NCBI GenBank assembly: GCA_964016885.1
Contig: OZ024740.1
Coordinates: forward strand, 202,306,001-202,370,000
Length of the DNA stretch: 64,000 nucleotides
Direction: 5' to 3'
Source of the DNA: Eledone cirrhosa
Taxonomy: Eukaryota
Positions within the stretch are counted from its first letter, which is position 1, and every line of letters begins with the position of its first letter. Below are positions 6,002 to 63,082 of this stretch, piece after piece. Both the position numbers and the translations under genes were made by a program. Under the pieces are notes generated by a model that was not told the DNA's origin, ran no database searches, and saw only the letters and a list, made by a program, of their open reading frames with translations.

Positions 6002-6033
<32 letters not shown>

Positions 6034-7104
6034 CAAAGGAATTGTGGTAAGGAACCAGGTGGACCATAACGCACCAGAGTACTCAATACTTAGGGTAGTA
6101 GAGTGGGAAATAGGAAAAAGTATGGAATAGGAAAGGAAAAGTATGGAATAGGAATATGAAAAAGTATGACCCCTTTAGACAATATAACCTTTGTTTATAT
6201 TTAGACAAATGCATATATCTAATTTAATAATAAACTTTTTAAAGTTTAATTATAAGGCCTTTTGATGCTTTAAGGCATTCTAATTGTTAATCTTAATTTT
6301 TAAAATTATAACTGTAATTATTTTATAAATTATATAATGCGAATTATCTTCAATATAATATAAATAATTAATATATTATAATAAAATTAATAAGAATTAC
6401 CTTCGTGGTGATGAAAATATGTATTCTTTCTCATGTTTTGCAAATAGTTTAAATATGAATTCATAAAATATGATTTTATAAATTAAATATGATAGTATAT
6501 TTTTATAAACTTTTATAGCCTGAAATATTATACACTTTGATTAATTCATTACTCTGAACTAACTTAATTGATTTGAAAGTTAACGGTCAACCGGATACGT
6601 TTGGATAGTATATATAACTAATTAACTAAGGAAATTAACCTTTATTAATTACACCCAGTTGTATTTAGGATTTTGATTGATGAATACTTCTAGATAATTC
6701 AATAATTCAAAGATTTGAGTTTACTCTATCGCATAGCTATGCCCAAATGTATAGTTATGTATAGATATATATAATTCATCCCTCCCTATAATTTAGTCTC
6801 TCTTTCCTTGATCAATTCTCTTTTGCTCTCTTTACCTCTACTAGCTATATTTTCCCCTCATCTGTTTTCTCTCTGTCTTTCTTTTTTTTCTTTCCTCTTT
6901 CTTCAATAATTATTTGAATCTCTAACAGTTATGTAAATTGCTGTTATGTATTTTTAAGCTTTCTTACACGCACCCTCTGTATTATATGTAAGTTGTTTCA
7001 TGTATCAATCTTAAGGTATATTAAATGAGTTTTATCATATCTTACTCACTACCATGACTGGATCTTAACCATCTACTATGTCAGGGTATGTCATGCATCA
7101 TCTT

Positions 7105-7169
7105 ATTTTATCTGATGAGGACGTACTGTTGAAGTTAGCCCAGTACCTCTGAAATATGTATAATAAAAT
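7105..7169 (+). ncRNA. Minimal type I hammerhead ribozyme motif
   Basis: attttat CTGATGA ggacgtactg-loop-cagtacctct GAAA tatgta TA ataaaat. Confidence 0.7.
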
Positions 7170-7284
7170 ATACTTGATCACAAGAAGTTCTATTTTTGTT
7201 AATATTTTGAATTTATATATATATATATATACACGTACATGAAATTTCGTTTCATTTTTTCCGTTTATATATATATATATATAT

Positions 7285-7599
7285 ATTAAAATACAAATAT
7301 TAATAAAATAGATGTTCTTTTTATCAATTACATTTTATTATACATATTTCGGATGTACAACAGTACGTCCTCATCAGACAAAATATAATGATATATGACA
7401 TACCCTGAGATGTTAAATGGTTAAGATTTAATCAAGGTAGTCACTACCTTGATTAAATCTTAACCATTTAACATCTCAGGGTATGTCATATATCATTATA
7501 TTTTGTCTGATGAGGACGTACTGTTGTACATCCGAAATATGTATAATAAAATGTAATTGATAAAAAGAACATCTATGTTATTAATATTTGTATTTTAAT
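7285..7599. repeat. Near-perfect palindrome, 157-bp arms, 1-nt spacer
   Basis: 7285-7441 is the reverse complement of 7443-7599 (one mismatch seen); lies between (TA)n tracts. Confidence 0.95.
7500..7552 (+). ncRNA. Minimal hammerhead ribozyme motif (mirror copy on - strand at 7332-7384)
   Basis: attttgt CTGATGA ggacgtac tgtt gtacatcc GAAA tatgta TA ataaaat. Confidence 0.75.
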
Positions 7600-7713
7600 A
7601 TTAATAACTCTGGAAAATTATTTTTCATAGAGTGCTTCCAATCTACTGTAAAACTCATTCTTTGATATACTCATTGAATATTGTTTAACTCTTTAATATA
7701 TATATATATATAT

Positions 7714-8009
7714 ATGATATTAAATAAATGGAAACTATATTTATAAAACCATATTTATTTCATTATATATATTTCAGGGATATCATATTAACAATATGTT
7801 ATGCCTTCATCAGATAAAATACAATATAAACAGTCTTATAAATAAATAGATATGACATACCTTTCAATCGACTTGCATTTGATATAAGACTGTTTATATT
7901 GTATTTTGTCTGATGAAGGCATAACATATTATTAATATGATATCCCTGAAATATATATAATGAAATAAATATGGTTTTATAAATATAGTTTCCATTTATT
8001 TAATATCAT
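7714..8009. repeat. Fold-back, about 127-bp arms
   Basis: 7714-7840 pairs with 7883-8009; lies between (TA)n tracts. Confidence 0.93.
7903..7966 (+). ncRNA. Minimal hammerhead ribozyme motif (mirror copy on - strand at 7757-7820)
   Basis: attttgt CTGATGA agg.ata.catatt-loop-aatatg.tat.cct GAAA tatata TA atgaaat. Confidence 0.7.
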
Positions 8010-8095
8010 AAATATACTCCAAATACTTGTTGAGTGCTTTTATATCAGTTATAAATATTTACTCGTTGTTAACCCAACAATTTAAATATAACTTT

Positions 8096-8130
<35 letters not shown>

Positions 8131-8135
<5 letters not shown>

Positions 8136-8445
8136 AAAAAGAGATGAAATCGAAAATGCAACTGGAGTCTTATTTTTTTGAAAAAATATATATATTTATT
8201 TGGTTCCTTTACCGGTTTCGCAGTTCTTCTGCTTTTCAAAAGGTGAGTTGAGATGGAGGGTCTGTGGTTTTTCTCAGATGTGAGAAAAACCACAGACCCT
8301 CCATCTCAACTCAGACCCTCCATCTCAACTCACCTTTTGAAAAGCAGAAGAACTGCGAAACCGGTAAAGGAACCAAATAAATATATATATTTTTTCAAAA
8401 AAAGAAGACTCCAGTTGCATTTTCGATTTCATCTCTTTTTCTTTA
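8131..8445. repeat. Fold-back, about 146-bp arms, 4-nt loop
   Basis: Centre ttctca-gatg-tgagaa at 8271-8286; the right arm has a 19-bp tandem duplication. Confidence 0.93.
8333..8370 (+). ncRNA. Minimal hammerhead with U3-A8 variant core (mirror copy on - strand at 8206-8243)
   Basis: cctt TTGAAAA gcag aagaa ctgc GAAA ccgg TA aagg; perfect stems I and II, palindromic stem III loop. Confidence 0.72.
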
Positions 8446-8802
8446 TACTTTCACTCGTGTAGGACACCGGTTATTTTTCATTTTGTAAAAAAAACCCTCA
8501 CTTTCTAATATATATATATATATATAATGTATTATTAATTAATAAGAAATATATGTCATTGACTAATATTGTTGTTTATTCCTCACCAAATAATATAGTC
8601 ATTGACTAATATTGTTGTTTATTCCTCACCAAATAATTATATCTAGTAAGAATTTTGAGTTCCACATATTAGATATATATTAATATCAAGTTACCTATTT
8701 GCCTGTCTGTACTTATCAATCTATCTGTTAGTCTGCCTCTCAGCCTGTCTTTCTGACTATCCCTGCATCTATCTCACCTTATATTCATATATCAAGTTAG
8801 CT

Positions 8803-8960
8803 TATAAAATAGAGTGAGGACTTTTAAAAGACAGAAAAGTAAGTTGCCGTCGGCCGCTGTGAGGATTTGAACCGACCTGGAAGATATGGGGTTGAATTCC
8901 CCACAGCGGCCGATGGCAACTTACTTTTCTGTCTTTTAAGTGTATTCACTCTATTTTATA
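8803..8960. repeat. Fold-back of a tRNA-SINE fragment
   Basis: tataaaatagagtga...aaaagacagaaaagtaagttgccgtcggccgctgtg inverted at 8901-8960; B-box-like ggttcaaatcc / gttgaattcc near the centre. Confidence 0.7.
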
Positions 8961-30522: not shown

Positions 30523-30614
30523 CTCACTATTTTATACACCTATTGTCAATATAATTTACTTGATGTGCATGGCTTCTACACCCGCTTGCTTTTATTCTCA
30601 TCTAGCACTTTGTA

Positions 30615-31520
30615 AAATTTCTAGCCCTCTTAGATAGACACTTCCCCATAGGTCATAAATACCGCTCCATCTTTAACCGACACAAAGTTAAACTAGGATA
30701 CTCCTGCGCTAAGAACATGAAGGCCCATATCACCAGCAGCCCTAGGAGCAATACCCCACCAGGGTGCTCTTGCCGTAAGCCTGAAGCTTGCTCCCTTCAA
30801 CAGCAATGCAACACACCAGCTGTAATCTATGAAGCTGTGGTCACTTCCAACCGACCAAACGAACCACAGGAGGTCAAATCCTATGTGGGTATGGCGGAGG
30901 GCCGATTCAAGGAGCGTTTCCTGAACCACCAGTCTACCTTCAGATACCCGGACAGTCGTTCATCCACAAAATTTGCGAGCCACGTATGGTCCCTCAAGGA
31001 CTCAAGTATAGGCTACTCCATTCAATGGAAAGCCATCACTAAGTCCAAGCCATACGCAAGGGGAAATACGACGTGTGGCTTATGTATTGACGAACGAATA
31101 ACTATCCTAAAGAGATTACGCAATAGTGATTGCCTAAACACGAGAAGTGAATTTTTCACACGTTGTCCACACGTCACCAAACATCTATTGCATAACTACA
31201 AGGCTCCGGACTGATTCTTTGTAATTTTATTTTTAATTCTTTTTATTTTATTTTCAACCTAAAAACTTTCTGGACTTTCGCAGTTATCTCCCTTACACCT
31301 CCCGCACGCAGTCTAGTATTGCCTGTATGAAGTGACCGAGTTTCTGCGCGTTCGTACGGTTGTCCTTCCTGTTCCTATAACCATACACATCCCGAGCTGA
31401 AGATCTGCGAAGGTGAAACAATTGTTCTTGGTATGGTGAACTAACTGTTGTGTAACCACTTCTACCTAACTCCTCCCTTGGACTGAGTGCTCTACCACTA
31501 CGGATATTACCTTCCAGTGT
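30615..31520 (+). mobile_element. 5'-truncated Penelope-like element (GIY-YIG end + 3' hammerhead)
   Basis: KFLALLDRHFP...IFNRHKVKLGYSC...CSCRKPEAC...VIYEAVV...SYVGMAEGRFKERFLNH...CGLC...LNTRSE. Hammerhead at 31392. Ends at a (TA)n tract. Confidence 0.88.
31381..31436 (+). ncRNA. Minimal hammerhead motif at PLE 3' end
   Basis: ccatac..ccgag CTGAAGA tctgcgaaggt GAAA caattg TT cttgg tatgg. Confidence 0.7.
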
Positions 31521-32180
31521 TCCACCACTATATTATATATATATATATATATATATGGCTGAAAAATTCTAGGATTTATAAAATGGCCTCCTTGTCCCTC
31601 TTAATCTTTACCCCACCCCCCCATATCGTATTACGCGCCTGCTGGTTCACCCTTTCAATCACTCCCTTCTCTCACCAAATATAAATAAACCTGTTACGAG
31701 GTACGAATCTCAGAAATTGTCAACGCTTATTGATGGCCAGACCTGCCCCCCCCCCCCCCCCCCCCCCGAACGAAATGTAATGTAAAATGCCATTTTTTTT
31801 CTTGTCTCTCCAGCCTCTCGGTCCATTCATTCATATATCTGTATCATCGCTCAGAATCCAATCTTTTGCTCTCTCTCAATGCTATTCTATAATTCAGTCT
31901 GGTTGTTCTAAATAATGTTCTTGTATTTTAAAATCACATTATTCGCTTATTATTACTGTTATATGCTTGTCCAATTATGCCCAAAATTCGAAGATTTTAT
32001 TTAAACCCTCTTGCTAACTACCCCATACCTCTCCCACCTGCCCCCACTCTCCACCATTATTATTAGGACCAATCATAAGTCAGCGGCCTATGCTATCACT
32101 TCTGGTTGCTTTTCGATATGATGGATGGACTAAGGAATTCTGGAGAGTCTGAAAAATTTGGACACTCAGTGACAATGCCA

Positions 32181-33646
32181 AAGATAAAGACAAATTCACC
32201 TCATGCTGCCGGACGAAAAGGCAAGGACTCCCCCTCTTTGTTTCGGCCGCGGATGGCCAACATAACAGAGGAGTTCAAGACCGGCTGCCCATGGGAACTC
32301 CTATATGCAGATGATCTAACGCTCATAGCTGAATCAATGGCCGAGCTAGAGAAGAAATTCCAAACATGGAAGCACGGCCTAGAATCAAAAGGCCTTAAAA
32401 TTAACCTGGCTAAGACTAAAGTTCTAGTTTGTAAGAAAGAAAATAAGGCGGCGGTCCCCTCCGGGAAGTGGCCATGCGCAGAGTGTAGGAAAGGCGTAGG
32501 TAGAAATTCCATTTTGTGTCCCAAATGCAAAGTTTGGGTGCATAAAAGATGTAGTGGGATCACAGGTAAGCTAACTAAGAACATAGATTTTACATGTGGC
32601 CGGTGTTCTGGGGCAATAAGTAGCAGCAAGTGCCCATAAATACTAGCTCTTTCAACTGCGCAGAGGGTTCTATAGAAATAGTGGACAGCTTCTGTTACCT
32701 GGGTGACAAAATCAGCAGTGGGGGAGGGTGCTCTGAAAGTACAGTAGCTAGAGTCAGAACTGGGTGGAAAAAGTTCAGAGAGCTTATACCACTATTAGCC
32801 GCTAAAGGGTTCTCCCTAAAAATGAAAGGCAGGCTGTACGATGCCTGCATACGAACAGCAATGTTGCATGGCAGTGAGACCTGGGCATTGTGTGCAGAGG
32901 ATATACGCAGACTAGAGAGGAACGAAGCTTGCATGCTCCGCTGGATGTGTAATAGTAATATACGTGAACGACAAAGCATAAACGAACTAAGGAAAAAATT
33001 AGAAATAAGAGGGATCAGATGTTGTTTACTAGAGAGAAGGCTACGTTGGTATGGTCACGTGATGCGCATGAAGGACGATAGCTGTATAACAAAGTGCAGG
33101 GCAATAAAGATAGACGGTAGCCACGGAATAGGCAGACCCAGAAAAACCTGGGACGAGCTGATAAACTCCGACCTCACACACTTACACCTCACCAAGACAA
33201 TGTCACTGGACCGAGACCTTTGGCGGTACTCAGTAATAGAGAAGACCCGCCTTACCTAAATACAAAGTAAAACCTACTACAGTCAGTAGGCATCTCTAAC
33301 AAAATACACCCCCGTCCCACCACCCCCACCCCATCCACACCGCCCCCTTCTATGTAAAGTTATGTTGGTGCCACACCATCCAGGCCGAAACAAATGAGAT
33401 CGTGTAGGTGTCACGACAAAAAAACACACAGTCCACGCTGTAATGTGGCCGTGTAGGCAACACGGTAAAAACCTCCCAGACCCACACTGTAAATGTGGTT
33501 GGTGTTAGGAAGGGCATCCAACTGTAGAAAACCTGCCAGACAGTCCTATGCGAGCAAGACAATCACTCTTGCCTCAAGTGGGAAAACCCCCGTCCAAACC
33601 CATGCAAGCGTGGAACACGGACGTTAAACGTTGATGATGATGATGA
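32181..33646 (+). mobile_element. RTE-clade LINE, internally deleted copy
   Basis: The 5' end (..FRPRMANIT) is joined to the RT C-terminus (EEFKTGCPWELLYADD), followed by a Cys-rich insert, MLHGSETW, RRLRWYGHV, GRPRKTW, the 3' UTR and a (TGA)n tail. Confidence 0.92.
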
Positions 33647-33649
33647 TAT

Positions 33650-33686
<37 letters not shown>

Positions 33687-34808
33687 TATATTATATATAT
33701 ATTATATTATATATTATATTATTTATATTATATTATATATATATATATATATATATATTATATTATATTATATTATATATATTATATATATATTATATTA
33801 TATATATATTATAATATATATATTATATATATATTATAATATATATATTATATATATATTATAATATATATATTATATATATATTATATTATATATATTA
33901 TATTATATATATTATATATATATTATATTATATTATATATATATTATATTATATATATATTATATTATATATATTATATATATTATATATATATTATATT
34001 ATATATATATATATTATATATTATATATATTATATTATATATTATATATATTATATTATATATATATATATCATATATATTATATTATATATATATATAT
34101 CATATATATTATATTATATATATATATATATATTATATATATTATATATATATATATATATTATATATATTATATTATATATATATATTATATATATTAT
34201 ATATTATATTATATTATATATATTATATATATTATATTATATATATTATATATATTATATATATTATATTATATATATTATATTATATATATATTATATT
34301 ATATATATTATATTATATATATTATATATATATTATATTATATATATTATATTATATATATTATATTATATATATTATATTATATATATTATATATATAT
34401 TATATTATATATATTATATATATATTATATTATATATATATTATATTATATATATATGATATTATATATATATGATATTATATATATATATTATATTATA
34501 TATATTATATATATATTATATTATATATATATTATATATCTTCTATACATATTATATTATATATATTATATATATATTATATATATATTATATTATATAT
34601 ATATTATATTATATATATTATATATATATTATATTATATATTATATTATATTTATATTATATTATATATATTATATATATATTATATTATATTATATATA
34701 TATTATATATATATTATATTATATATATATTATATATATATTATATATATATTATATTATATATATATTATATATATATTACATTATATTTATTATATAT
34801 ATTATATA
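33647..34808. repeat. TA/TTA microsatellite tract
   Basis: About 1.2 kb almost exclusively A/T. Confidence 0.97.
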
Positions 34809-35000
34809 CATATGTTTGATTTTTGGAAGTAGTTTCTCATGAATCTACTCACGATCAACTGGATGATATCAAATCAGAACAACATGACAGTAAATCATTT
34901 GTTGATTGTAAAGAGCAGGGGTTTTGAATCTTTATCTTCTCACCTTTTAGTGTGTTACTGATACTGTCTAGGTGTGTTGTGATACTTTAGTGTGTTGTGA

Positions 35001-45081: not shown

Positions 45082-45174
45082 TTTCAGCAGAAAGCAGCAG
45101 GGAAACACTGTCCTGATGAGATCCATTAGCTTGAAATGCGCATAGACAGTTATCCCTCGCTGCTTTTGCTGGAA
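45082..45174 (+). ncRNA. Hammerhead motif with long extended stem I
   Basis: tttcagcagaaagcagc.aggga..actgtc CTGATGA gatccattagctt GAAA tgcgca TA gacagt..tccct.cgctgcttttgctggaa; stem II is weak. Confidence 0.65.
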
Positions 45175-45450: not shown

Positions 45451-48400
45451 CGCTCCCCGATCTCAAGGATCAGTCCCCCCCATCACACTGCTCCATCTCA
45501 AAATCTGCCATCCACCTAGGTTGGCGGCGGCTCCATTGCGATCTCCGCACTGTTGGGGCGGCACTTTCATTTTCCTCTTCCTCGGAGTCCGTCACCACAA
45601 CGACTCTACGGACGTCCAAGGCATGGCATTCCGTCCACAGACACGTTGTTTTCGGAATTTACGTGCATTCGGGGGCTTGACCCATACCTCTTCACCCACT
45701 CGTACGAATGCTCTCTCTCTCTCCACCGGCTGCTGTGGTACCATGCACAGATGTCGCCATTCATATCTGTATATTGCCCTGTGCGGCACCGACTCCTCGG
45801 CCTGTCCCATCCGCGGAGACATGTACCAGAACACTGCCTCTGTTGGCGAAATGAGCCCCATTTCCACCATAGCCTTGATCGTGCGATGGTGTCTCTCCCC
45901 AATCCCATTTCCATTCGGCCTGTATGCCGCTCTGAAGAAATGGTTCACCTTCCATTTGTCAAGCATTTCCCTCAGTGCCTCCGAGTGAAACGCCGTGCTG
46001 TTGTCCATCAGCAGTTCTTCCACAGGGCCCCGCTCCAAGAATATCTCTCTCAGCGTTCGCAGGATTTCCTCCGCAGTTTCTGTCTTCATTTCCCTCCATA
46101 TCGCCATCTGCCCTGACCCACAATTGACCATCGAAAGATACGTTCCTTGTCAGTAGTGTGTCATGTCCACCGCCAATTGCTTCCAGTTGTGCTCCACCGG
46201 GGTGCTGCCTGTCTTGTGTACACCCGGGGCAGGGTCGATAGACGGGTATCTGTCACAACCTCTGAGCACTCTCTGGACACTCTGTCTGTTAACATCAGAG
46301 TCGATTCTCCTGTCCTAGCCACCCCCATGTGGTGCATGGCGTGCAGTCCCCTCAACTCCGAATCACTCAGCCGACATACTGCCGCTATCCCCTTCTCTAC
46401 ATCGCCTGGCGTTTCCAGCAAGGCTTTCTTCACCCTGGTTAATACGTCTGCCCTGTTTTTCTCTGAGGGCACAAAAACCACACTCAACTCCAGGCCAAAC
46501 TCAGTGGACAGCTCTCCCAGAGTTGCCAGGCGGCGCTTTATCAAAGTTTCTGCTAACCTTCTCGTTCGCACCCTCCTCTCACTGGTAAGCACTAATCTCA
46601 CCCATTCGAGTACAGTGGCCGAGTCAGTGCTGATTTCTATGGTGCGCAGCCCCACCTCAGGGCGAGATTAACTCCCCTCAGCACAGCATTCAGTTCGGTC
46701 AAGTTGATGTGGTTGTAGTCCTCCTTCTTCCTGAGCCAGGCTGCGTCCTCGACCTCGATGCCCCCTATCTCCAGAGTGACCCCTAGTGATATGCTGCATC
46801 ACACCATACGGTCCCGCTCTCCGATTTGGAGACGTACCACCGTCCTTTCACTGGATCATCCGCCTTTACCCTCTCCACGATTTCCTGCATCATGGCCACT
46901 GTCCTCTCTCCAACCCTGTCAGCCCAGCTCAGTCCGTCTCTTGACATAGCTGCCGTCCGGAGCCACCCTGCGATAGGATAGTGGCCCACCAATTTACCAC
47001 ACATTGAGAAGAGTTCCTGTCTATTCATATCGGGGCCCAGTTACGAGAATTCGTTACCCCTCCGAAACGTAAGTGTGCCCGTGTTATCCCTTTGCAACCT
47101 GAGTCCTAGCGCGGCTCCTCCTTCCATCGCGGTCAGCCCGAACCTTCCCAAGTGGCCTGAGACTTCTGCTGCTGACACTACTGTCTCGTCCACCAACATG
47201 TCGTCGATGTAGAAGTTGGTGGCCTTCTTCACCTTGTCCGCTTTCCCCAGAATGGCCTTGAGGACCGTCGCCATGATTTTTGGTGCAGAGTTCAACCCGA
47301 AGCCAAGCCTGGTCAGACAGTATGTCTGGCCCTTATACCTGACCAGCTGATATTTCCACAGCTTCTCATCCACGTGTAACTGCAGATATGCCAACTTTAA
47401 GTTGACAATTGTGGAGCCCCCCCCTGTCATTTGTCTCCACTCTCGCAAAGTTTCCCCGCAAACATCCGTGACCTCATCGCCTGTGTGGCATGACACGTGT
47501 TTGTTCAGCTCATGAAAGTCCAGCACCGGCCTAACCTTGTTCTTTGTGGGCTGCACCACTGCCATCAGCGGCAACACTCCACACTTCACCTCCTCCTTCC
47601 AAGGAAGCAGTATACCCTCTTCGATCCATCTCTGTACCTCTCCCTGAAACTGGCTTCTGACATTTCCTTTCAGGGTATGCTGATAGCAGCCCACTCTGTT
47701 CTTCAGCGTTGGTAGATCTCCCTTCCAGGACCACTCAACTACCCACCGCCCTGAAATCCTTGTCCTGTGTGGTGTTTTCTTCGTGGATTCTCCCACGCGC
47801 ACAACACATTATGTCCTCTCGCTACCAAACGTCACCTCGACTTCAGTCACTGTAACACCTCCAAGGCAGCCAATTGTGTCCATGCCCATTACTAAATCGA
47901 TTCTGTCCATCACCTGGTCAATCACGATCGCCCGAAGCCTAATTTTTCTTCCCCGTTCCACCATCGACACCTCGCTGGTACCTCTGCATCTAATCTCCCT
48001 GTTGTCGACTGCCCTTATACTGCTCATCCCGCTGCACTTTTTAACCACCTCCATGGTCACTAGTGTTGTTGTGCAACCTGTGTCCACGAGTGCTCACGAT
48101 GGCTTCCTTTCCACCAAAACTTCCACTATGGGCAGCGACTGCAAAGGCGCTTCTACTTGCTTCCAGGAGTGGCTACCGGCGCAGTAGCCCCCTTAGTCCA
48201 TTTCCCTGGTCGCAATTATTTGCGATGTGGCCTGGTCGCTTGCAGCGATAACAGACTATGGCTGGCTTCGGCTCTCTGCAGTCCCTTGCCATGTGCGGGC
48301 CCTGGCACCTGAAGCACCGGCCTCCGAACATACGCGGACGACTATTCACAATGGCTGGTCTCCTTTCGTCATACGTCGGTTGCTGTCGACTGCCATGGGC

Positions 48401-51127: not shown

Positions 51128-51410
51128 TATTAAATTGTTAAACAATATTCGATGATTATGTCAAAGAATGATTTTTACAGTAGATTGGAAGCATGCAACG
51201 GTAAATAATTTTCAGGAGTTATTATGTCTGTGTGTCGTCTTGGTTATTTTCTTTGTCCTTAGTCTCCCTTCTCCTTTTAATCCTATTGCTTTCCCTTATT
51301 TCTGTGATTTCTGTGCTACTGTCATTACTTGTTCTCTGTGTCTGTGTGTTTGTTAAGATTGTGGTGGTGGTGGGAGGCATTAAATGTGTGTGTGTTGTTG
51401 TTGTTGATGT

Positions 51411-53372
51411 GTGTTGTTGTTGTCTCCTTTTGTGTGTGTTATTAGCACAGAAATCACAGAAATAAGGGAAAGCAATAGGATTAAAAGGAGAAGGGAGACT
51501 AAGGACAAAGAAAATAACCAAGATGAACACACAGACACACAAAATAGGGTAGATAACAACAATGAGCCAGTGGAAAGAGACAGGAGTAATTATGAGAGAC
51601 ATAGAAACAACCATGAGGCTGTTGGTGGAAATAGAAATAGAAACAACACAACTAACAATAACAATAGCACTAGTACACATAAAGCAGCAGCCTGGAACTC
51701 TACGTTTTATAATCCCTCCGATAAATCGTTCGACCTGGGACGAGTCCACGCCACGACTCTACCATTGAACAAACGCACGCAATTGCCGTCGCAGGTCGAT
51801 GAACAAACAGAAGCACAATTTAGTATAGCTAGATCCGAACTTAGAAATATTATAGAACAGTATAGCAAGAAGCATAATAGAATGGAGGCCCAGCAACTGG
51901 GAGAAAAATCTGCAAATGGCTTGCGTAAGCTCATGCAGCGCTCGCGTAATGGAGAGATAGCATGCTTTCCAACAGACAAGTCTGGCAGAATGTCGGTTGA
52001 CAGCCTGCCAAACTACATCCAGGCAATGCAACCCCTCATCACTAACACAAGAGAGGTAACACCACAGGAGCATGAGGATAGAGAAAAAGCCCTCAATGCC
52101 CATATGGTGATGTGGACGAATATAATGCAGCCCAACAAAAGGACTGCCAACAACTTCCAGGCCTGGAACAATGATGTGCCGGCGTTGTATGGGCTTCGAA
52201 AAGACCATAAAACAGGCAGTGACCCTGTCGCGGGACCACCAACACGGCCAGTCTGTGGAGCTAACATTGCTAGTAACTACAGACTGTCCTACTTCCTCTC
52301 CCTGATCATACACCCCATCATTGAAATTTCCCCAGATGTATGTGACAGCACGGAGGACCTCCTCAGCAGAATCGGCGTGGGTAACCGATCTAGGGACCTA
52401 ACAAACTGCATAATAGGTAGTATGGATGTTGTGTCCCTGTATCCATCTATTGACGTGGATTTTGCTGTGGAGAAATGCGTAGAAATGATCAGTGAGAGCA
52501 ATGTTGAGTTCCGTGGGATTGATACCAGTGAGCTGGGACTCCTACTTAAACTTAACTATAGTAATAATTACCTAGACACATATGACCTTAGCAACCTGTT
52601 CCCTACAAGACCAGCAAGAGGCAGACCACCTACCATTACCTCAATGGCCAAGAAAACCCACACAGATAGATGGAACGGGTGGACCAGAGCCATACGGACA
52701 CCCGAAAACGACGATGAACTGAAGAAAATGATTGCACATGCGGTAGAGGCCAGCATAAAACTAACCCTTAAGGAACATATGTTCAAATTTAATGGAAAAA
52801 CATATGCCCAAGAGGAAGGAGCAGCCATTGGTGTTAGCATTGCAGGCGACATAGCTAACTTATTCATGGTATGGTGGGACAGTAGACTTAAACTTAAACT
52901 TAAAGAACAATTAGAAGACCCCTTAACCCTGATAATGTACTCCCGCTACGTTGATGATATAAACATCGTAGTTAAAACACTCCCACTAGAGAACAGTCAG
53001 GAATTAGAGAAGAACACAATGGAAAGCATCCAGCAAATAGCTAACTCCATCCACCAGAGCATTAGAGTTACTATAGACTACCCAAGTAAACACCCCAACC
53101 ATCGATTACCTGTACTAGACACAGAGCTCTGGTTAGATACCATTAATAACAAAAAACAAATCCTCCATTCCCATTATGCCAAACCCATGACTTCCAAACA
53201 TCTGATCCACCGAAACTCGGCCGTTTCGGACTATACCAAAATCAACATACTGATTGCAGATTTGGTACGGGTGATGAGAAATGTGTCCCGCATGTGCAAC
53301 CCAGAAGAACTAGAGACACATACAACATTTCATCCACCGTATGCAGTTCTCTGGCTACAATCAGAGAGATAA
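51411..53372 (+). pseudogene. PLE reverse transcriptase (frameshifted near 53315)
   Basis: 653-aa ORF with RT motifs; the reading continues in another frame as HIQHFIHRMQFSGY. Confidence 0.88.
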
Positions 53373-54075
53373 AATCAGAGTGTATAGAGGAGCCAGAACT
53401 AAATGGGAAAAAATGGTAAATAATGACATAAATGGGACCTGCCCCTTGTATAGGAGCAAATTTTGGAATAGAATAGAAAGAACTAGGAACAAGGCTAATA
53501 GAATAAACTCATGGTATGATAGCAATAAATACCAGAGTGTAATGTTCATCGATACAACCCCTAGAGGTGAATTAGCTTACAAATTTAGAAGGGCCCTAAA
53601 TAAACATAAACTCAATATTAAGATAGTAGAAAGACCAGGTACCTCCGTAAAAACACTTATTAGCAAGACATACCCTTTTCAAAGACCCTCATGTATAGAT
53701 AAGAAATGTATAACCTGTAAAATAAGCCCCCATATTAACTGTAAAACTAGAAATGCAGTGTATAGCATAAGATGTACTGAAGGACAATGTAGAGACAAAA
53801 ATATAGTGTACATAGGTGAGACAGCTCGTAGTGTAGGGGAACGGATAAATGAACACTGGCGAGACCTTCAAGATAGTAAAGAATCATCTGTACTCTACCA
53901 AAATGCTAAAATAGAACACAAGGGTAAATTAGAGAACATAGAAATAAAAATAGAATCTACACACAGAAAAGACGCAATGTTTAGACAAATTTCAGAGGCA
54001 ATAAACATAAAAGAATTACAACCAAAATTAAATAGAAAATATGAGTGGAACAGCAACATCACAACTTACAATTAA
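53341..54075 (+). pseudogene. PLE thumb/linker and GIY-YIG endonuclease
   Basis: CIDKKCITC...NCKTRNAVYSIRC...YIGETARSVGERINEH...RQISEAINI...LNRKYEW. Confidence 0.9.
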
Positions 54076-54696: not shown

Positions 54697-55067
54697 GTGT
54701 ATATGTATATATGTATATGTTTATGTGTGTGTGTGTTTGTTTGTATGTATGAGTGTTGCTGTGTGCGCGTGTGTGTGTCGTACGTATAAGTGTCAATAAG
54801 TGATTTTTTTTTTTTTTTTTTTTTTTTTTGCGTGGGGACATAGAAATAATCGGGCTGGATGCCCGATCACGCAGTTAAACCACTGGGAGTGAAGAACCCC
54901 TAGCTCTTGTCAGGGCATTCTTCTAGGAGAAGGCATCTCGGGAAACTGGGTTAACTCCGACATAAAACCTGCGGCTCAGTAGTTACCGATGATGTTGATC
55001 TTTTCTTCTTTTCGGGTTATAGCTACTGTCGCTCAGAGAGTGTGATTGGCTCAGTGCACAGTCTTTC

Positions 55068-57752
55068 CTATTAGCGGCTAATAGTGGTATAAGCTCTCTG
55101 AACTTTTTCCATCCAGTTCTGACTCTAGCTACTGTACTTTCAGAGCACCCTCCCCCACTGCTGATTTTGTCACCCAGGTAACGGAAGCTGTCCACTATTT
55201 CTATAGAACCATCTGTGCAATGGTATGAGCTAGTATTCTGTGGGCACTTGCTGCTACTTATTGCACCAGAGCACCGGCCACATGTAAAATCTATGTTCTT
55301 AGTTAGCTTACCTGTGATCCCACTACATCTTTTATGTACCCATACTTTGCATTTGGGACATAAAATGGAGTTTCTACCTACGCCTTTCCTACACACTGAG
55401 CATGGCCATTTCCCGGAAGTGACCGCCGCCTTATTTTCTTTCCTACAAACTAGAACTTTAGTCTTAGCCAGGTTAATTTTAAGACCTTTTGATTCTAGGC
55501 TGTGCTTCCATGTTTGGAATTTCTTCTCTAGCTCGGCCATTGATTCAGCTATGAGCGTTAGATCATCTGTGTATAGGAGTTCCTATGGGCAGCCAGTCTT
55601 GAACTCCTCTGTTATAGCCTGAAGGGCAATAATAAATAGTAGGGCGCTAAGAACAGAGCCCTGATGGACACCATCTTTTACGCTAAACTCTTCACTATAT
55701 TCGTTGTTAATTCTAACCTTGCTGACAGTTTCTTTATACATGGCTTGTATAGCTCTCACAAGCCATTCGTCAACACCTAGTTTTCTAAGAGTCCACCAGA
55801 TAATGGAACGGGGGACTCTGTCGAAGGCTTTCTCCAAGTCGACAAAAGCTAAGTATAGGGGTTTACTTTTAGCTAGGTACTTCTCCTGTAGTTGTCGTAC
55901 AATGAAAAGAGCGTCTGTGGTACTTTTGCCTGACACAAACCCGAACTGCATTTCATCTAGATCAATTCTCTCTCTGATTAGTTGCGCTATTACTTTTTCC
56001 GTGACCTTCATGACCTGGTCGATTAATTTAATGCCTCTATAGTTACTCCTATCTAGGGCATCTCCTTTACCCTTATAACAGTTAATGATGATGCTGCTAC
56101 GCCAGTTCTTCGGAACAACCCCATTCTGTACGACTTGGTTTACTATCCAGGTGACCATGGTGTGTCCCACCATTCCAGATGCCTTCAGCATCTCAGCAAC
56201 TATTTCCGAAGGCCCAGCCGCCTTACCCGTCTTCATATCTTTGATTGCCTTACTTATTATATTACCCTCGACTAACACTGCTGGTCCCTCTATTGGGTCG
56301 ATGTGGGGGAGACTGTCTTTCTCCCATTTATTCTCCTCATTTAGTAGCCTTTCGTAGTGACACTTCCAAGCTACCTTCTTATCAGCATCGGTGATGGCAA
56401 GTACGCCTTCATCATTAAGTACACACTTCTCCCCGACAATATCACGGTTTTCCTTGACACATTGCCTAGCAATCCTGAACACCTCACGTTTTTGGTCCTC
56501 GCGTTGTAGAACATGCTTGAACTTTCTTTCCTCTGCTTCCCTCCTGGCCACTTGATAGTCTTCTCTACTTCCCCCATCCCTGCCATACTTTCCAAGCCTG
56601 CTTTTTGGCCTTAATTGACTCCTCCACCTTACTGTTCCACCACCATGTTACTCTCCTCCTGCCTACAGGCCTGCTCCAGCCACAGACTTCGTCTGCCGCC
56701 ATCAGCAGGTTTGCTTTCAGGAATTCCCACTGTTCCTCTATATTGTACGACTCTAAATGCTCTTCCTTACTGTCGAAAGCATCAAGTAATATGCTTTGAA
56801 ATTTATTTCTGGCTGTGGGGTCCTTTAGCTTCCATATTTTTCTCCTGAGGATAGTCCTCTTCTGCTGTCGGGTACGTCTCGTCCTGACTATGATGTCGCT
56901 AATTATCAGTCTATGTTGGGAGGTGCATTCTTCATGGGGGAGGGATTTAATGTTTACAACAGACACTCTGTCACGTCTTCTGGTAAGGATATAATCTACC
57001 TGGCTTGTGTGTTCCCCCGATCTATAGGTGATCAGGTGATTGTCTCATTTTTTGAAGTTGGTGTTACAGATAGTTAGGTTATTCGCGTCACAGAATTCCA
57101 GGATTCTGGAGCCTTCCTCATTTCTAGTACCAAACCCATAGCCTCCATGGATTCCGTCGTAGCCGTCACAATGTTGTCCAACGTGACCATTTAGGTCGCC
57201 TGCAATAATTATATAGTCACTGTCGGTTATTTGGGAGGTAGTGAGCATCAGTGTCTCATAGAATCTGTCTTTTATAGTGCCGGGCAGTCCGGATTGGGGT
57301 GCGTACGCAGATATTACTGTCACCGTAGTTCTATTGAGGACAAGTCTTATTTTAATTATTCTGTCGTTCACTCTATTTACGTCTATTATCTTATCTGCCC
57401 ACTTTTCTGCTACCATGATTCCTACTCCACCCAGCCCGTTGTCATTTCCCACCCAGAAAAGCTTATAGCATCGTTTTTTACCCACAATGAATCAAGCAGA
57501 CCCACCCATCCACCTGGTCTCTTGAATACAACAAACATCGACCTCCTTACGTTCAAGCATTTCTACAACCTCGTTAGAGCGACCCTTTAAGGTGCCTACA
57601 TTCATGGTACCAACTCTGAAGTTTTGGATTGGGTTTGTAGGGTGGGAGCGGTGGGGCGCGGGGGGAAATGGGGTTATGTTAGCCATCCGCGGCCGAAACA
57701 AAGAGGAGGAGTGCTCGCATTCTCGTCCACAAGGTGAATTTGTCTTTATCGT
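55068..57752 (-). mobile_element. RTE-clade LINE, inverted 5' portion (APE + RT)
   Basis: GTMNVGTL, CIQETRW, ISAYAPQ, GDLNGHVG, QVDYIL, SQHRL; RT NYRGIKL, QFGF, FVDLEKAFDRV, GVHQGSVLS. Several stops and frameshifts. Confidence 0.93.
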
Positions 57753-57768
57753 TGATATATATATATAT

Positions 57769-58626
57769 CTATTAGCTGCTAAAGGGTTCTCCCTAAAAAT
57801 GAAAGGCAGGCTGTATGATGCCTGCATACGAACAGAAATGTTGCATGGCAGTGAGACCTGGGCATTGTGTGCAGAGGATATACGCAGACTAGAGAGGAAC
57901 GAAGCTTGCATGCTCCGCTGGATGTGTAATAGTAATATACGTGAACGGCAAAGCATAAACGAACTAAGGGAAAAATTAGAAATAAGAGGGATCAGATGTT
58001 GTTTACTTGAGAGAAGGCTACGTTGGTATGGTCACGTGATGCGCATGAAAGACGACAGCTGTATAAAAAAGTGCAGGGCAATAAAGATAGACGGTAGCCA
58101 CGGAGTAGGCAGACCCAGAAAAACCTGGGACGAGCTGATAAATTCCGACCTCACACACTTACACCTCACCAAGACAATGTCACTGGACCGAGATCTTTGG
58201 CGGTACTAATTAATAGAGAAGACCCGCCTTACCTAAATACAAAGTAAAACCTACTACAGTCAGTAGGCATCTCCAACAAAATACACCCCCGTCCCACCAC
58301 CCCACTCCATCCACACCGCCCCTTTCAATGTAAAGTTATGTTGGTGCCACAACATCTAGGCCGAAACAAATGAGATCGTGTAGGTGTCACGACAAAAAAA
58401 ACACACAGTCCACACTGTAATGTGGCCATGTAGGCAACACGGTAAAAACCTCCCAGTCCCACACTGTAAATGTGGTTGGTGTTAGAAAGGGCATCCAGCT
58501 GTAGAAATCCCGCCAGACAGTCCTATGCGAGCAAGACAACCACTCTTGCCTCAAGTGGGAAAACTCCCGTCCAAACCCATGCAAGCGTGGAACATGGACG
58601 TTAAATGATGATGATGATGATGATGA
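57769..58626 (+). mobile_element. RTE-clade LINE, 3' portion of the same insertion
   Basis: Resumes at LLAAKGFSLKMK, where the inverted part stops; nearly identical to 32791-33646; (TGA)n tail. Confidence 0.93.
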
Positions 58627-58636
58627 TATATATATG

Positions 58637-58667
<31 letters not shown>

Positions 58668-58841
58668 GTATATATATGTATGTATATATATATATATGTA
58701 TATGTATATATATATATGTATATGTATATATATGTATATATATGTATATGTATATATATGTATATGTATATATATATATGTATATATATATGTATATATA
58801 TATGTATATATATGTATATGTGTATATATATATGTATATAT

Positions 58842-58875
<34 letters not shown>

Positions 58876-59814
58876 GTATATGTATATATATATATATGTA
58901 TATGTATATATATATATATGTATATGTATATATATATATGTATATATATATATGTATATATATATATGTATATATATATGTATATATATGTATATGTATA
59001 TATATATATGTATATATATATGTATATATATGTATATGTATATATATATATGTATATATATATGTATATATATGTATATGTATATATATATATGTATATA
59101 TATGTATATATATGTATATGTATATATATATATGTATATATATGTATATGTATATGTATATATATGTATATGTATATATATATATGTATATATATGTATA
59201 TGTATATATATGTATATATATATATGTATATATATGTATATGTATATATATGTATATATATATATGTATATGTATATATATGTATATATATATATGTATA
59301 TATGTATATATGTGTATATGTATATATGTATATATGTATATGTATATATGTATATGTATATATGTATATGTATATATGTATATATGTATATGTATATATG
59401 TATATGTATATATGTATATATATATATGTATATATATATATATGTATATATATGTATATATATGTATATATATGTATATGTATATATGTATATATGTATA
59501 TATATATATGTATATGTATATATGTATATATGTATATATGTATATGTATATATGTATATATATATATGTATATATATATATATGTATATATGTATATATA
59601 TATATGTATATATGTATATATATATATGTATATATATGTATATATATATATGTATATATATGTATATATATATATGTATATATATGTATATATATATATG
59701 TATATATATATATGTATATATATGTATATATGTATATATATGTATATATGTATATGTATATATGTATATATGTATATATGTATATATATATATGTATATA
59801 TATATATGTATATG

Positions 59815-59845
<31 letters not shown>

Positions 59846-59858
59846 GTATATATATATG

Positions 59859-59927
<69 letters not shown>

Positions 59928-60107
59928 GTATATATATATATGTATATGTATATATATATATATGTATATATATATATGTATATGTATATATATATATATG
60001 TATATATATATATGTATATGTATATATATATGTATATGTATATATATATGTATATGTATATGTATATATATGTATATATGTATATGTATATGTATATATA
60101 TGTATAT

Positions 60108-60163
<56 letters not shown>

Positions 60164-60205
60164 GTATATGTATATGTATATATATGTATATGTATATGTA
60201 TATAT

Positions 60206-60251
<46 letters not shown>

Positions 60252-60288
60252 GTATATATGTATATATATATATATATATGTATATGTA

Positions 60289-60360
<72 letters not shown>

Positions 60361-61133
60361 TATATATATATATATGTCTATATATATATATATGTCTATG
60401 TATATATATATATATATATATATGTCTATGTATATATATATGTCTATGTATATATATATGTATATATATATGTATATATATATGTATATATATATGTATG
60501 TGTATATATATGTATATATATATATATGTATATATATATGTATATATATATATATGTGTATATATATGTATATATATATATATGTATATATATATGTATA
60601 TATATATATGTATATATATATATATGTATATGTATATATGTATATGTATATATATATATGTATATATGTATATATATATATGTATATGTATATATATGTA
60701 TATATATATGTATATATATATGTATATATATATATGTATATGTATATATATGTATATATATATGTATATATATATATGTATATATGTATGTATATATATA
60801 TGTATATATATATATATGTATATATGTATATGTGTATATATATATGTATATATATATATATGTATATGTGTATATATATATGTATATATATATGTATATG
60901 TGTATATATATATGTATATATATATATATGTATATGTGTATATATATATGTATATATATGTATATGTATATATATATATGTATATATATATGTATATATA
61001 TGTATATGTATATATGTATATGTATATATATGTATATATATATATATATGTATATGTATATATATGTATATATATATATATATGTATATGTATATATATG
61101 TATATATATCTATATGTATATGTATATATGTGT

Positions 61134-61166
<33 letters not shown>

Positions 61167-61668
61167 TATATATGTATATATATATATATGTATATATGTA
61201 TATGTATATATGTGTATATGTATATGTGTATATGTATATATGTATATGTATATATGTATATATATATATGTATATATATATATATGTATATATATATATG
61301 TATATATATATATATGTATATGTATATATGTATATATATATATGTATATATGTATATATATATATGTATATATATGTATATATATATATGTATATATATG
61401 TATATATATATATGTATATATATGTATATATATATATGTATATATATGTATGTATATATATGTATATATATATATGTATATATATGTATATATATATATG
61501 TATATATATGTATATATGTATATATATATATGTACATATATATATGTATATATATATGTATATATATATATGTATATATATATGTATATATATATATGTA
61601 TATATATATGTATATATATATATGTATATATATGTATATATATATATGTATATATATGTATATATATG

Positions 61669-61699
<31 letters not shown>

Positions 61700-61848
61700 G
61701 TATATGTATATATATATGTATATATATATGTATATATATATGTATATATATGTATATATATGTATATGTATATATATATGTATATATATGTATATGTATA
61801 TATATATGTATATATATGTATATATATATATATGTATATATATATATG

Positions 61849-61897
<49 letters not shown>

Positions 61898-62128
61898 GTA
61901 TATATGTATATATATATATATATGTATATATATATGTATATATATGTATGTATATATATGTATATATATATATGTATATATATATATGTATGTATATATA
62001 TGTATATATATGTATGTATATATATGTATATATATGTATATATATGTATATATATGTATATATATGTATGTATATATATGTATATATATGTATGTATATA
62101 TATGTATATATATGTATGTATATATATG

Positions 62129-62165
<37 letters not shown>

Positions 62166-62461
62166 GTATATATATATATGTATGTATATATATGTATATA
62201 TGTATATATATATATGTATGTATATATATGTATATATGTATATATATATATGTATGTATATATATGTATATATGTATATATATATATGTATGTATATATA
62301 TGTATATATGTATATATATATATGTATGTATATATATGTATATATGTATATATATATATGTATGTATATATATGTATATATGTATATATATATATGTATG
62401 TATATATGTATATATATATGTATGTATATATGTATATATATATATGTATGTATATATATGT

Positions 62462-62515
<54 letters not shown>

Positions 62516-62516
62516 G

Positions 62517-62555
<39 letters not shown>

Positions 62556-62613
62556 GTATATATATATATGTATATATATATATGTATGTATATATATGTA
62601 TATATATATATGT

Positions 62614-62653
<40 letters not shown>

Positions 62654-62655
62654 GT

Positions 62656-62695
<40 letters not shown>

Positions 62696-63080
62696 GTATA
62701 TATATATATGTATGTATATATATGTATATATATATATGTATGTATATATATGTATATATATATATGTATATATATATATGTATATATGTATATGTATATA
62801 TATATATGTATATATATATATGTATATATATGTATATATATATGTATATATATATATATATATGTATGTATATATATGTATATATATATATGTATATGTA
62901 TATATGTATATATATGTATATATATATGTATATGTATATATATGTATATGTATATATATGTATATGTATATATTTATATGTGTATATATATATGTATATG
63001 TATATATATGTATATGTATATATATGTATATGTATATATTTATATGTGTATATATATATACATATATATATTTATGTATA
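58627..63080. repeat. (TA)n/(TATG)n microsatellite, about 4.4 kb
   Basis: Direct reading; source of the long low-complexity ORFs. Confidence 0.98.
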
Positions 63081-63082
63081 TA

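What the first reader, a model, noticed from the sequence alone, without database searches (positions are those of the whole stretch)
7046..8508. Stack of non-coding, ribozyme-bearing fold-back cassettes nested in (TA)n tracts
Seen: three consecutive palindromes (7285-7599, 7714-8009, 8131-8445) are each bounded by TA microsatellite. Each carries a hammerhead in both arms pointing outward, and each has a 60-100 nt unpaired extension only on the right arm. A fourth single-arm relative lies at 7046-7215, giving seven hammerhead motifs in 1.4 kb. Known: Penelope-like elements carry minimal hammerheads in their pseudo-LTRs and often insert as an inverted partial repeat plus a tail. Inference: these are minimal PLE insertions, or a non-autonomous retrozyme-like family, that home into TA repeats and regenerate their own target. 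Transcription in either direction gives a long hairpin that would sequester the ribozyme.
Basis: partly seen in the sequence, partly recalled or inferred. Interest (0 to 1): 0.72.

Follow-up and report, generated by a model that had tools for sequence, protein, structure and literature searches.

The report
Stacked Penelope retrotransposon end-stubs
The seven ribozyme motifs are real, but they are the cut-short, back-to-back ends of four different protein-coding Penelope-like jumping genes piled up in one TA repeat, a known kind of debris, and their fixed end points suggest that each hairpin is likely made by two copying events running to the front end of the element's RNA.

Summary
Observation confirmed: three near-perfect palindromes with one-sided tails, one single arm, and seven type-I hammerhead motifs between (TA)n runs. 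They are not one non-coding family. Each is the pseudo-LTR (pLTR) of a different high-copy Penelope-like element (PLE) family whose longer copies carry an RT + GIY-YIG ORF: A, B and C are Hydra-clade, D is Neptune/Nematis-type. An inverted truncated copy, a one-sided tail, (TA)n targeting, opposite-strand hammerhead pairs and the U3-A8 core are all in print. Copy statistics give a mechanism (inferred): arms have two fixed 3' ends, one of each per palindrome. In family D about half of the 5' ends fall within 10 nt of a TATA(-30)/Inr site, and either arm can be the longer. This fits two reverse-transcription events primed on the two nicked target strands, run off the RNA's 5' end and joined head-to-head. 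Stacking is about threefold enriched over ordinary TA tracts, so such piles are expected. The scan has already reported this architecture, stacks included, at many other places in this genome. One oddity just left of the finding: arm A is fused head-to-head to an arm of a fifth family (2 of 187 joints).

The parts
6033..6172 (-). Family E arm with tail (fifth PLE-type family), inverted and fused head-to-head to A with no TA between; begins at the predicted hammerhead cleavage site; contains a short internal repeat
   Evidence: 28,415 exact copies of a tail 29-mer; Hydra-type EN upstream in L322, L326
6173..7213 (+). Family A (Hydra-type) 5'-truncated copy: 3' UTR plus pLTR ending at the short (tail-less) 3' site; keeps a TATA-like box at 7017-7024 and Inr-like site at 7048
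7112..7162 (+). Hammerhead motif of A (type I, minimal stem III)
7214..7231 (.). (TA)n
7239..7265 (+). 27-nt 3' end of another repeated TA-ending family (F); no ORF link tested
7266..7286 (.). (TA)n
7283..7441 (-). Family B (Hydra-type) inverted pLTR, short 3' end, 5' end exactly at the Inr-like +1; hammerhead 7339-7377
7442..7697 (+). Family B direct pLTR from -1 of the Inr-like site, hammerhead 7507-7545, tail 7602-7697
7696..7715 (.). (TA)n
7714..7881 (-). Family C (Hydra-type) inverted pLTR, short 3' end, 5' end at +19; hammerhead 7764-7813
7883..8097 (+). Family C direct pLTR from about +60, hammerhead 7910-7959, tail 8017-8097
8098..8132 (.). (TA)n
8131..8276 (-). Family D (Neptune/Nematis-type) inverted pLTR, short 3' end, 5' end at about +5; U3-A8 hammerhead 8210-8239
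8275..8508 (+). Family D direct pLTR from -1 of the Inr-like site (2-nt overlap with the left arm), 19-nt duplication 8293-8332, U3-A8 hammerhead 8337-8366, tail 8448-8508
8508..8526 (.). (TA)n

Best explanation
The stretch is a pile of separate, cut-short insertions of four protein-coding Penelope-like retrotransposon families in one (TA)n tract, and each palindrome is one family's ribozyme-bearing pLTR present twice head-to-head, likely written by two reverse-transcription events primed on the two nicked strands of the target. Shown: family identity, ORF link, two fixed 3' ends per family (short and tailed), one of each per palindrome, TA at both outer ends, A/T-rich element sequence at both 3' sites, and a pile-up of 5' ends at a TATA/Inr-like site (strong in D, weaker in B and C). 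Inferred: the GIY-YIG domain nicks both strands of (TA)n; RT starts at the two internal sites of the element's RNA; each cDNA runs toward the RNA's 5' end and often off it; the two ends are joined through 1-8 nt of microhomology. The B, C and D cassettes lack the upstream TATA-like box and the ORF, so they are likely dead ends. Each insertion splits one TA tract into two, which would make later insertions beside it likelier.
For: ORF links: C, unit of 3,774 bp pLTR-RT-EN-pLTR (L091); B, 4 of 4 loci picked because their tail ran on into non-TA sequence have a second pLTR 3.8-4.3 kb away with an EN between; D, 25 of 25 loci found with the ORF end carry the D arm in the same orientation 629-1,100 nt on and L196 is a 4,915-bp unit; A, 6 of 14 loci have Hydra-type EN or RT upstream in the same orientation. 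Exact copy counts: D 6,009, C 6,199, B 2,147, reversed-pattern controls 0. D arms taken in genome order: 53 tailed, 36 short, 1 other of 90; TA at the 3' end in 85 of 90; 23 of 24 head-to-head pairs are short + tailed; 42 of 90 5' ends at -4..+6 of the Inr-like A against 4 of 90 at -35..-5. A second, partly overlapping sample anchored downstream of the ribozyme gave 44 of 89 against 1 of 89, and 20 of 22 pairs. TATA-like boxes start at -31 (A, B), -30 (D), -29 (E). Either arm can reach further 5' (tailed 9, short 7, equal 3; and 11, 6, 2), with mirror-image junctions such as (-1,+4) and (+4,-1); in C the tail-less arm can be 0.6-2.9 kb long beside a short tailed arm (L078, L081, L086, L087), so neither arm can simply be a copy of the other. 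Arms of one insertion are more alike than arms of different insertions (D 1.35 v 2.50%, n=50; C 0.52 v 1.65%, n=24; B 2.15 v 3.23%, n=8; permutation p<=0.001), and both window D arms share a base seen in no other of 197 arms. Papers: PMC11167929 shows in vitro that a PLE cuts and extends both strands and starts RT at two internal sites that bracket the tail; PMC8557442 gives the inverted copy + tail layout and (TA)n targeting.
Against: No transcription start was measured; the Inr/TATA reading is by sequence only. C has no TATA-like box at -30, and in genome order only 4 of 30 C arms and 6 of 30 B arms end at -4..+6, although 11 of 30 best-hit C arms do; the window's own C cassette ends at +19/+60. 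The Drosophila Penelope promoter was reported as internal and TATA-less (PMC2377424). Two earlier versions of the arm-similarity test were weaker or null (D p=0.0004, C p=0.17, B p=1.0; D p=0.94, where the compared segment ran past the short end and biased the test). Arm similarity could also come from conversion after insertion. PMC3846280 explains head-to-head palindromes by self-priming on an antisense template. This locus is not confirmed by long reads.
Confidence: 0.8

Rival explanations
1. Same PLE origin, but each palindrome arises by fold-back self-priming of one template (antisense RNA or first cDNA), not by two primings on the target.
For: Proposed for rotifer PLE palindromes (PMC3846280). 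The two arms of one insertion are more alike than arms of different insertions and the window's D arms share a private base. The D start site is imperfectly self-complementary, and junctions show short overlaps.
Against: Fold-back predicts that the tailed arm always contains the other. The tail-less arm reaches further 5' in 7 of 19 and 6 of 19 informative D pairs, sometimes by hundreds of bases, and by 0.6-2.9 kb in four C loci. Solo arms end at the same 5' and 3' sites. Two cross-family head-to-head joints exist.
Confidence: 0.12
2. The palindrome + tail cassettes are a non-autonomous, retrozyme-like or MITE-like family that is itself transcribed and re-inserted as a unit.
For: A few junction types recur in D (for example -1/+2, -1/+4, -1/+6); short cassettes are very common (16 of 22 compared pairs under 330 nt apart).
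Against: Four unrelated families, each tied to its own ORF; 17 different junction types among 19 D pairs; the same junction occurs with the tail on either side; no tandem monomers, which define non-LTR retrozymes (bioRxiv 10.64898/2026.07.22.740005); cassettes lack the TATA-like box.
Confidence: 0.04
3. The stack acts as a host silencing locus: the promoter kept by copy A (7017-7048) would drive a transcript through B, C and D whose hairpins yield small RNAs against three PLE families.
For: A keeps TATA-like and Inr-like sites pointing into the stack; a 3' pLTR can drive downstream transcription (PMC2377424); the B cassette folds into a 157-bp hairpin, -254.8 kcal/mol, z=-36.
Against: Sequence possibility only; stacks of this kind are expected from the insertion bias, and nothing shows selection at this locus. 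It does not compete with the origin given above, only with 'inert debris'.
Confidence: 0.05
4. The palindromes are fold-back artefacts of sequencing or assembly.
For: No long read spanning this locus could be laid.
Against: Arms differ by 1-2 substitutions, one has a 19-nt duplication, only one has a tail, both outer ends fall on the family's fixed 3' sites; contigs of public runs show joints entering the D arm at 8274-8280 from antisense D sequence (these runs may be the assembly's own sample).
Confidence: 0.02

Closest known systems
Hydra clade of C-terminal EN+ Penelope-like elements (Craig et al. 2021, PMC8557442; section 11 read, supplement rows for Hydra-1_Obim seen)
   Same: B and C ORFs: RT then GIY-YIG-type EN, RWR for RWK, DKT, CxCX5C linker, CxxC and CxH, no CCHH seen; canonical hammerhead; (TA)n insertion. 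A and E link to the same EN type.
   Different: Units are 3.8-4.3 kb with 1.1-1.4 kb 3' UTRs, longer than the 'generally <3 kb' described; tails are 81-96 nt against the 30-40 bp described; the hammerhead listed for Hydra-1_Obim differs by eye from those of A, B and C, so these are other families.
Neptune/Nematis-type EN+ PLEs (PMC8557442)
   Same: D ORF: RT (PF00078) + GIY-YIG (PF01541) in 770 aa, DKG, CX4CxxC linker in most of 25 copies, CCHH.
   Different: Neptune versus Nematis not resolved (no reference tree built); tail about 61-64 nt; U3-A8 hammerhead core.
Standard PLE insertion unit: inverted 5'-truncated copy + direct pLTR + one-sided tail (PMC8557442 passages; PMC3846280 passages and Discussion)
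   Same: Head-to-head orientation, tail on one end only, TCACT Inr-like site in the pLTR, overlap at the junction.
   Different: Here both arms are truncated down to the pLTR, and copy numbers allow the 5' pile-up at the Inr-like site to be measured; the rotifer paper favours self-priming, these data favour two primings.
Minimal PLE hammerheads (Cervera & de la Pena 2014, PMC4209133; parts 1-2 of 4 read)
   Same: Type I, tiny palindromic stem III, U3-A8 variant, and 'dual min-HHRs ~100-700 bp apart on opposite strands' already noted.
   Different: Nothing essential; activity not tested here.
Animal non-LTR retrozymes (bioRxiv 10.64898/2026.07.22.740005, part 1 of 5 read; PMC7229834, search listing only)
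   Same: Non-coding, type-I hammerhead, related to PLE pLTRs.
   Different: Retrozymes are head-to-tail tandem monomers; these are head-to-head stubs of coding elements.

Membership tests
EN+ Penelope-like elements | Arm is the terminal repeat of an element with RT + GIY-YIG ORF | tested here: met
   (A 6 of 14, B 4 of 4 selected, C L091, D 25 of 25)
EN+ Penelope-like elements | pLTR-ORF-pLTR partial tandems | tested here: met
   L091 (C), L092-L095 (B), L196 (D); not looked for in A
EN+ Penelope-like elements | Inverted 5'-truncated copy and one-sided tail matching the sequence just before the ORF | tested here: met
EN+ Penelope-like elements | Type-I hammerhead in the pLTR | tested here: met
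   descriptor scan; Rfam models gave no listed match
EN+ Penelope-like elements | Ribozyme self-cleavage | not testable with these tools
   no enrichment of D 5' ends at the cut site (1 of 16, p=0.55)
Hydra clade (A, B, C) | RWK-like and DKT motifs in RT N-terminus | tested here: met
   RWR and DKT in B and C; not read for A
Hydra clade (A, B, C) | CxCX5C linker, CxxC/CxH, no CCHH | tested here: met
   (B, C); A EN seen only downstream of the linker
Hydra clade (A, B, C) | (TA)n insertion | tested here: met
   TA at 3' end in 30 of 30 C and 28 of 30 B arms
Hydra clade (A, B, C) | Placement in RT phylogeny with reference Hydra families | not tested
   reference proteins were seen only in the supplement text and not aligned
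Neptune/Nematis type (D) | DKG, CX2-5CxxC linker, CCHH in C-terminal EN | tested here: met
Neptune/Nematis type (D) | Neptune versus Nematis by RT tree | not tested
   no reference set on hand
Non-LTR retrozymes | Head-to-tail tandem non-coding monomers each with a hammerhead | tested here: not met
   pairs are head-to-head; same-orientation repeats are 3.8-4.9 kb apart with an ORF between
Non-LTR retrozymes | Abundant circular RNA | not testable with these tools
   no RNA run could be laid

The most novel reading that the evidence does not exclude
PLE integration is a two-ended reaction in which two RNAs are reverse-transcribed from two fixed internal start sites onto the two strands of one cut and run off at the element's transcription start; the thousands of mini-palindromes are the 'strong-stop' fossils of this, and the E-A joint at 6172/6173 shows that the two RNAs can even come from different families.
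Probability: 0.45. Interest if true: 0.55.

Novelty: new member of a known kind. Interest (0 to 1): 0.27.

Why it matters
As a locus it is ordinary retrotransposon debris. Its value is as one sample of a very large natural data set on how Penelope-like elements insert, which PMC8557442 and PMC11167929 both call unresolved. The copies give base-level predictions for the RNA start and the two RT start sites of four families, and these can be tested by CAGE and by an in vitro assay. It also explains why such genomes hold on the order of 100,000 hammerhead motifs (17 in 400 kb of evenly spaced sample; rough extrapolation) without any new ribozyme system.

Tried and rejected
Rfam scans of the window and of two single arms listed no hammerhead family; the motifs rest on the descriptor scan. 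Single-motif folding was weak (z -0.3 to -2.8; only B folds into the hammerhead shape as its best structure, D partly), as expected of minimal hammerheads, so it was not used as support. Pfam found RT and GIY-YIG only in D, plus a weak RT hit in the window's own PLE ORF; the B and C ORF pieces had no relevant hit, so their assignment rests on motifs and on similarity among ENs. Sequencing runs: no RNA holder listed; laying reads gave no piece spanning the stack. Ribozyme cut site as a 5'-end hotspot: D 1 of 16 ends at +71..+75, p=0.55; E 2 of 30 tail arms within 1 nt of the site: not supported. A-to-I marks: A/G differences between paired arms were 12 of 77 in D against 19 of 77 C/T: no excess in this sample. 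Arm-similarity tests were flawed (de-duplication by sequence; segment running past the short end) and were replaced; all three results are given. Counts contained duplicates and were replaced. The first cross-family screen (0 of 180) missed the window's own case because of a strict gap limit and was replaced. Literature searches for the run-off/twin-priming reading or for nested stacks found no paper stating it, but the library lacks most subscription journals, and I did not read Evgen'ev & Arkhipova 2005, Arkhipova 2006 or Lunse et al. 2017 (recalled titles).

Full report
1. Observation. A type-I hammerhead descriptor finds 7 motifs in 7001-8520 and none in 300 shuffles. All point outward from the palindrome centres. 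A, B and C have the usual C3-G8 core; D has U3-A8, a variant described in PLEs (PMC4209133). Rfam listed no hammerhead match. The centres of C and D are asymmetric, and arm A is the end of a 1,041-nt copy.

2. Four families, each the end of a coding element. Searches of the own genome with each arm gave many dispersed copies at 93-100% identity (only the best 40 are scored). Exact short patterns count 6,009 (D), 6,199 (C) and 2,147 (B) matches, with 0 for the reversed controls. For C, locus L091 holds two pLTRs 3,774 bp apart with RT and EN frames between. For B, 4 of 4 loci chosen because the tail ran on into non-TA sequence hold a second pLTR 3.8-4.3 kb away with an EN between. For D, 25 of 25 loci fetched with the ORF end carry the arm in the same orientation 629-1,100 nt further on, and L196 is a 4,915-bp unit. 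For A, 6 of 14 loci have an EN or RT of the B/C type upstream in the same orientation. B and C show RWR, DKT, CxCX5C, CxxC and CxH and no CCHH, the diagnosis of the Hydra clade, which inserts in (TA)n (PMC8557442 section 11). D has RT + GIY-YIG, DKG, a CX4CxxC linker and CCHH: Neptune/Nematis type. In B, C and D the tail is the sequence just upstream of the ORF, and the element reads A/T-rich at both 3' end sites, so it can pair with a TA target.

3. Anatomy across copies. I took D arms in genome order: 90 of the first 100 listed matches to the ribozyme core, and 89 of the first 100 matches to a pattern downstream of it; the two samples overlap in part. Arms end at one of two sites (53 tailed, 36 short, 1 other; 55 and 34), with TA next in 85 of 90 and 85 of 89. 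Head-to-head pairs are one short plus one tailed arm in 23 of 24 and 20 of 22. The 5' ends pile up at one place: 42 of 90 and 44 of 89 lie at -4..+6 of an Inr-like A, against 4 and 1 in the 31 nt upstream. A TATA-like box starts 29-31 nt before that site in A, B, D and E, but not in C. The pile-up is weaker in B (6 of 30) and C (4 of 30 in genome order, 11 of 30 among best hits). In the window, the B centre sits on the Inr-like site, D is a -1/+5 junction with a 2-nt overlap, and C stopped short (+19/+60).

4. Mechanism. A PLE protein in vitro cuts and extends both strands of AT-rich DNA and starts RT at two internal RNA sites that bracket the tail (PMC11167929). The copy data fit two such primings on one target, each cDNA running toward the RNA's 5' end, then end-joining. 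Fold-back of one template, proposed for rotifer elements (PMC3846280), predicts that the tailed arm always contains the other. Here the tail-less arm reaches further in 7 of 19 and 6 of 19 informative D pairs, the same junction occurs in both mirror forms, and four C loci have a 0.6-2.9 kb tail-less arm beside a short tailed one. The two arms still share a source: within-pair divergence is about a third to two-thirds of between-insertion divergence in all three families (two earlier, flawed versions gave mixed results), and the window's D arms share a base found in no other of 197 arms. Conversion after insertion could also give this. The transcription start, the two primings and the joining step are inferred, not shown. 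The ribozyme leaves no clear mark on where copies end (D 1 of 16, E 2 of 30).

5. Not a retrozyme family. There are no tandem monomers, there are 17 junction types among 19 D pairs, and the cassettes lack the upstream TATA-like box. A read-through RNA would fold into a long hairpin (B: -254.8 kcal/mol, z=-36) that would bury the ribozyme; this is untested.

6. The stack. Beyond the 3' TA tract of D, C and B arms, 16 of 137 have another hammerhead within 400 nt, against 21 of 523 sides of TA tracts in 400 kb of evenly spaced genome (odds ratio 3.2, p=0.0013). Regional clustering was not controlled. At about 12% per neighbour and tens of thousands of insertions, four-member stacks would be expected on the order of a hundred times (my rough estimate). 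The pile here is longer than reported: a 27-nt end of family F lies at 7239-7265, and an inverted tailed arm of family E (28,415 exact tail matches; Hydra-type EN upstream in 2 of 30 loci) lies at 6033-6172, joined directly to A. Among the loci held, 185 head-to-head joints are within one family and 2 are between families, one of them this one. It may be a cross-family two-ended insertion or a later deletion. Copy A keeps its TATA-like and Inr-like sites pointing into the stack, so it could drive a hairpin-rich transcript; there is no RNA evidence either way.

7. Reality of the locus. No long read could be laid. Differences between arms, the one-sided duplication and tail, and ends on the family's fixed sites argue against an assembly fold-back.

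8. Comparison and novelty. The layout (inverted truncated copy, one-sided tail, TA target), the opposite-strand hammerhead pairs and the U3-A8 core are all published (PMC8557442 passages, sections 11 and 15 and supplement rows; PMC3846280 passages and Discussion; PMC4209133 parts 1-2 of 4). The families look like further members of known clades; I could not check Repbase or Dfam. My searches found no paper stating run-off to the transcription start with two-strand priming for PLEs, within a library that lacks most subscription journals. Other agents of this scan reached the same reading at many places in this genome; my reading was written down before I looked, and their notes are not independent support. 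Supplements of the bioRxiv retrozyme preprint were not seen and could hold related element structures.

9. Verdict. Real and well explained: new members of a known kind, interest 0.27. The mechanistic reading deserves about 0.55 if the transcription starts and two-template products are confirmed.

Noticed in passing
window 6033-6173: Family E tailed arm fused head-to-head to family A with no TA between and 1 nt of overlap; a second cross-family joint (E-like arm to C arm) is in L221. 2 of 187 joints among the loci held.
   Followed up: partly
L319-L348 (family E): Very abundant family (28,415 exact tail matches) with a U3-A8 type hammerhead whose long stem II contains the TATA/Inr-like site; 12 of 30 tail arms start 33-43 nt before the cut site, so most copies hold only the 3' half of the ribozyme.
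   Followed up: partly
window 7239-7265; L085, L249, L261, L282: 3' end of another TA-ending repeat family (F) with short and longer 3' ends and inverted copies; ORF link not tested.
   Followed up: partly
window 51408-54075 and 54279: Near-complete PLE-type RT and GIY-YIG frames (two frames, + strand) with a hammerhead-like motif about 200 nt downstream; a 95% identical copy is in L081.
   Followed up: no
window 30606-31214: Hydra-type endonuclease fragment with the CxCX5C linker.
   Followed up: partly
window 45113-45144: A further hammerhead-like motif found by the first descriptor but not by the stricter one.
   Followed up: no
window 45592-47808: Broken frames resembling an LTR-retroelement RT and integrase on the - strand (label recalled, not tested).
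   Followed up: no
window 32079-33259 and 54983-58209: Fragments of a LINE-type reverse transcriptase in several copies (label recalled).
   Followed up: no
window 8803-8960: Inverted repeat with 71-nt arms, 89% complementary, 16-nt spacer; no match among the loci held at that time.
   Followed up: partly
window 33646-34813 and 58626-63082: Very long TA-type microsatellites (1.2 kb and 4.5 kb).
   Followed up: no
window 8293-8332 and L032: The same 19-nt tandem duplication in a D arm occurs at one other locus, but not in the window's left arm, which suggests recurrent slippage during copying.
   Followed up: partly
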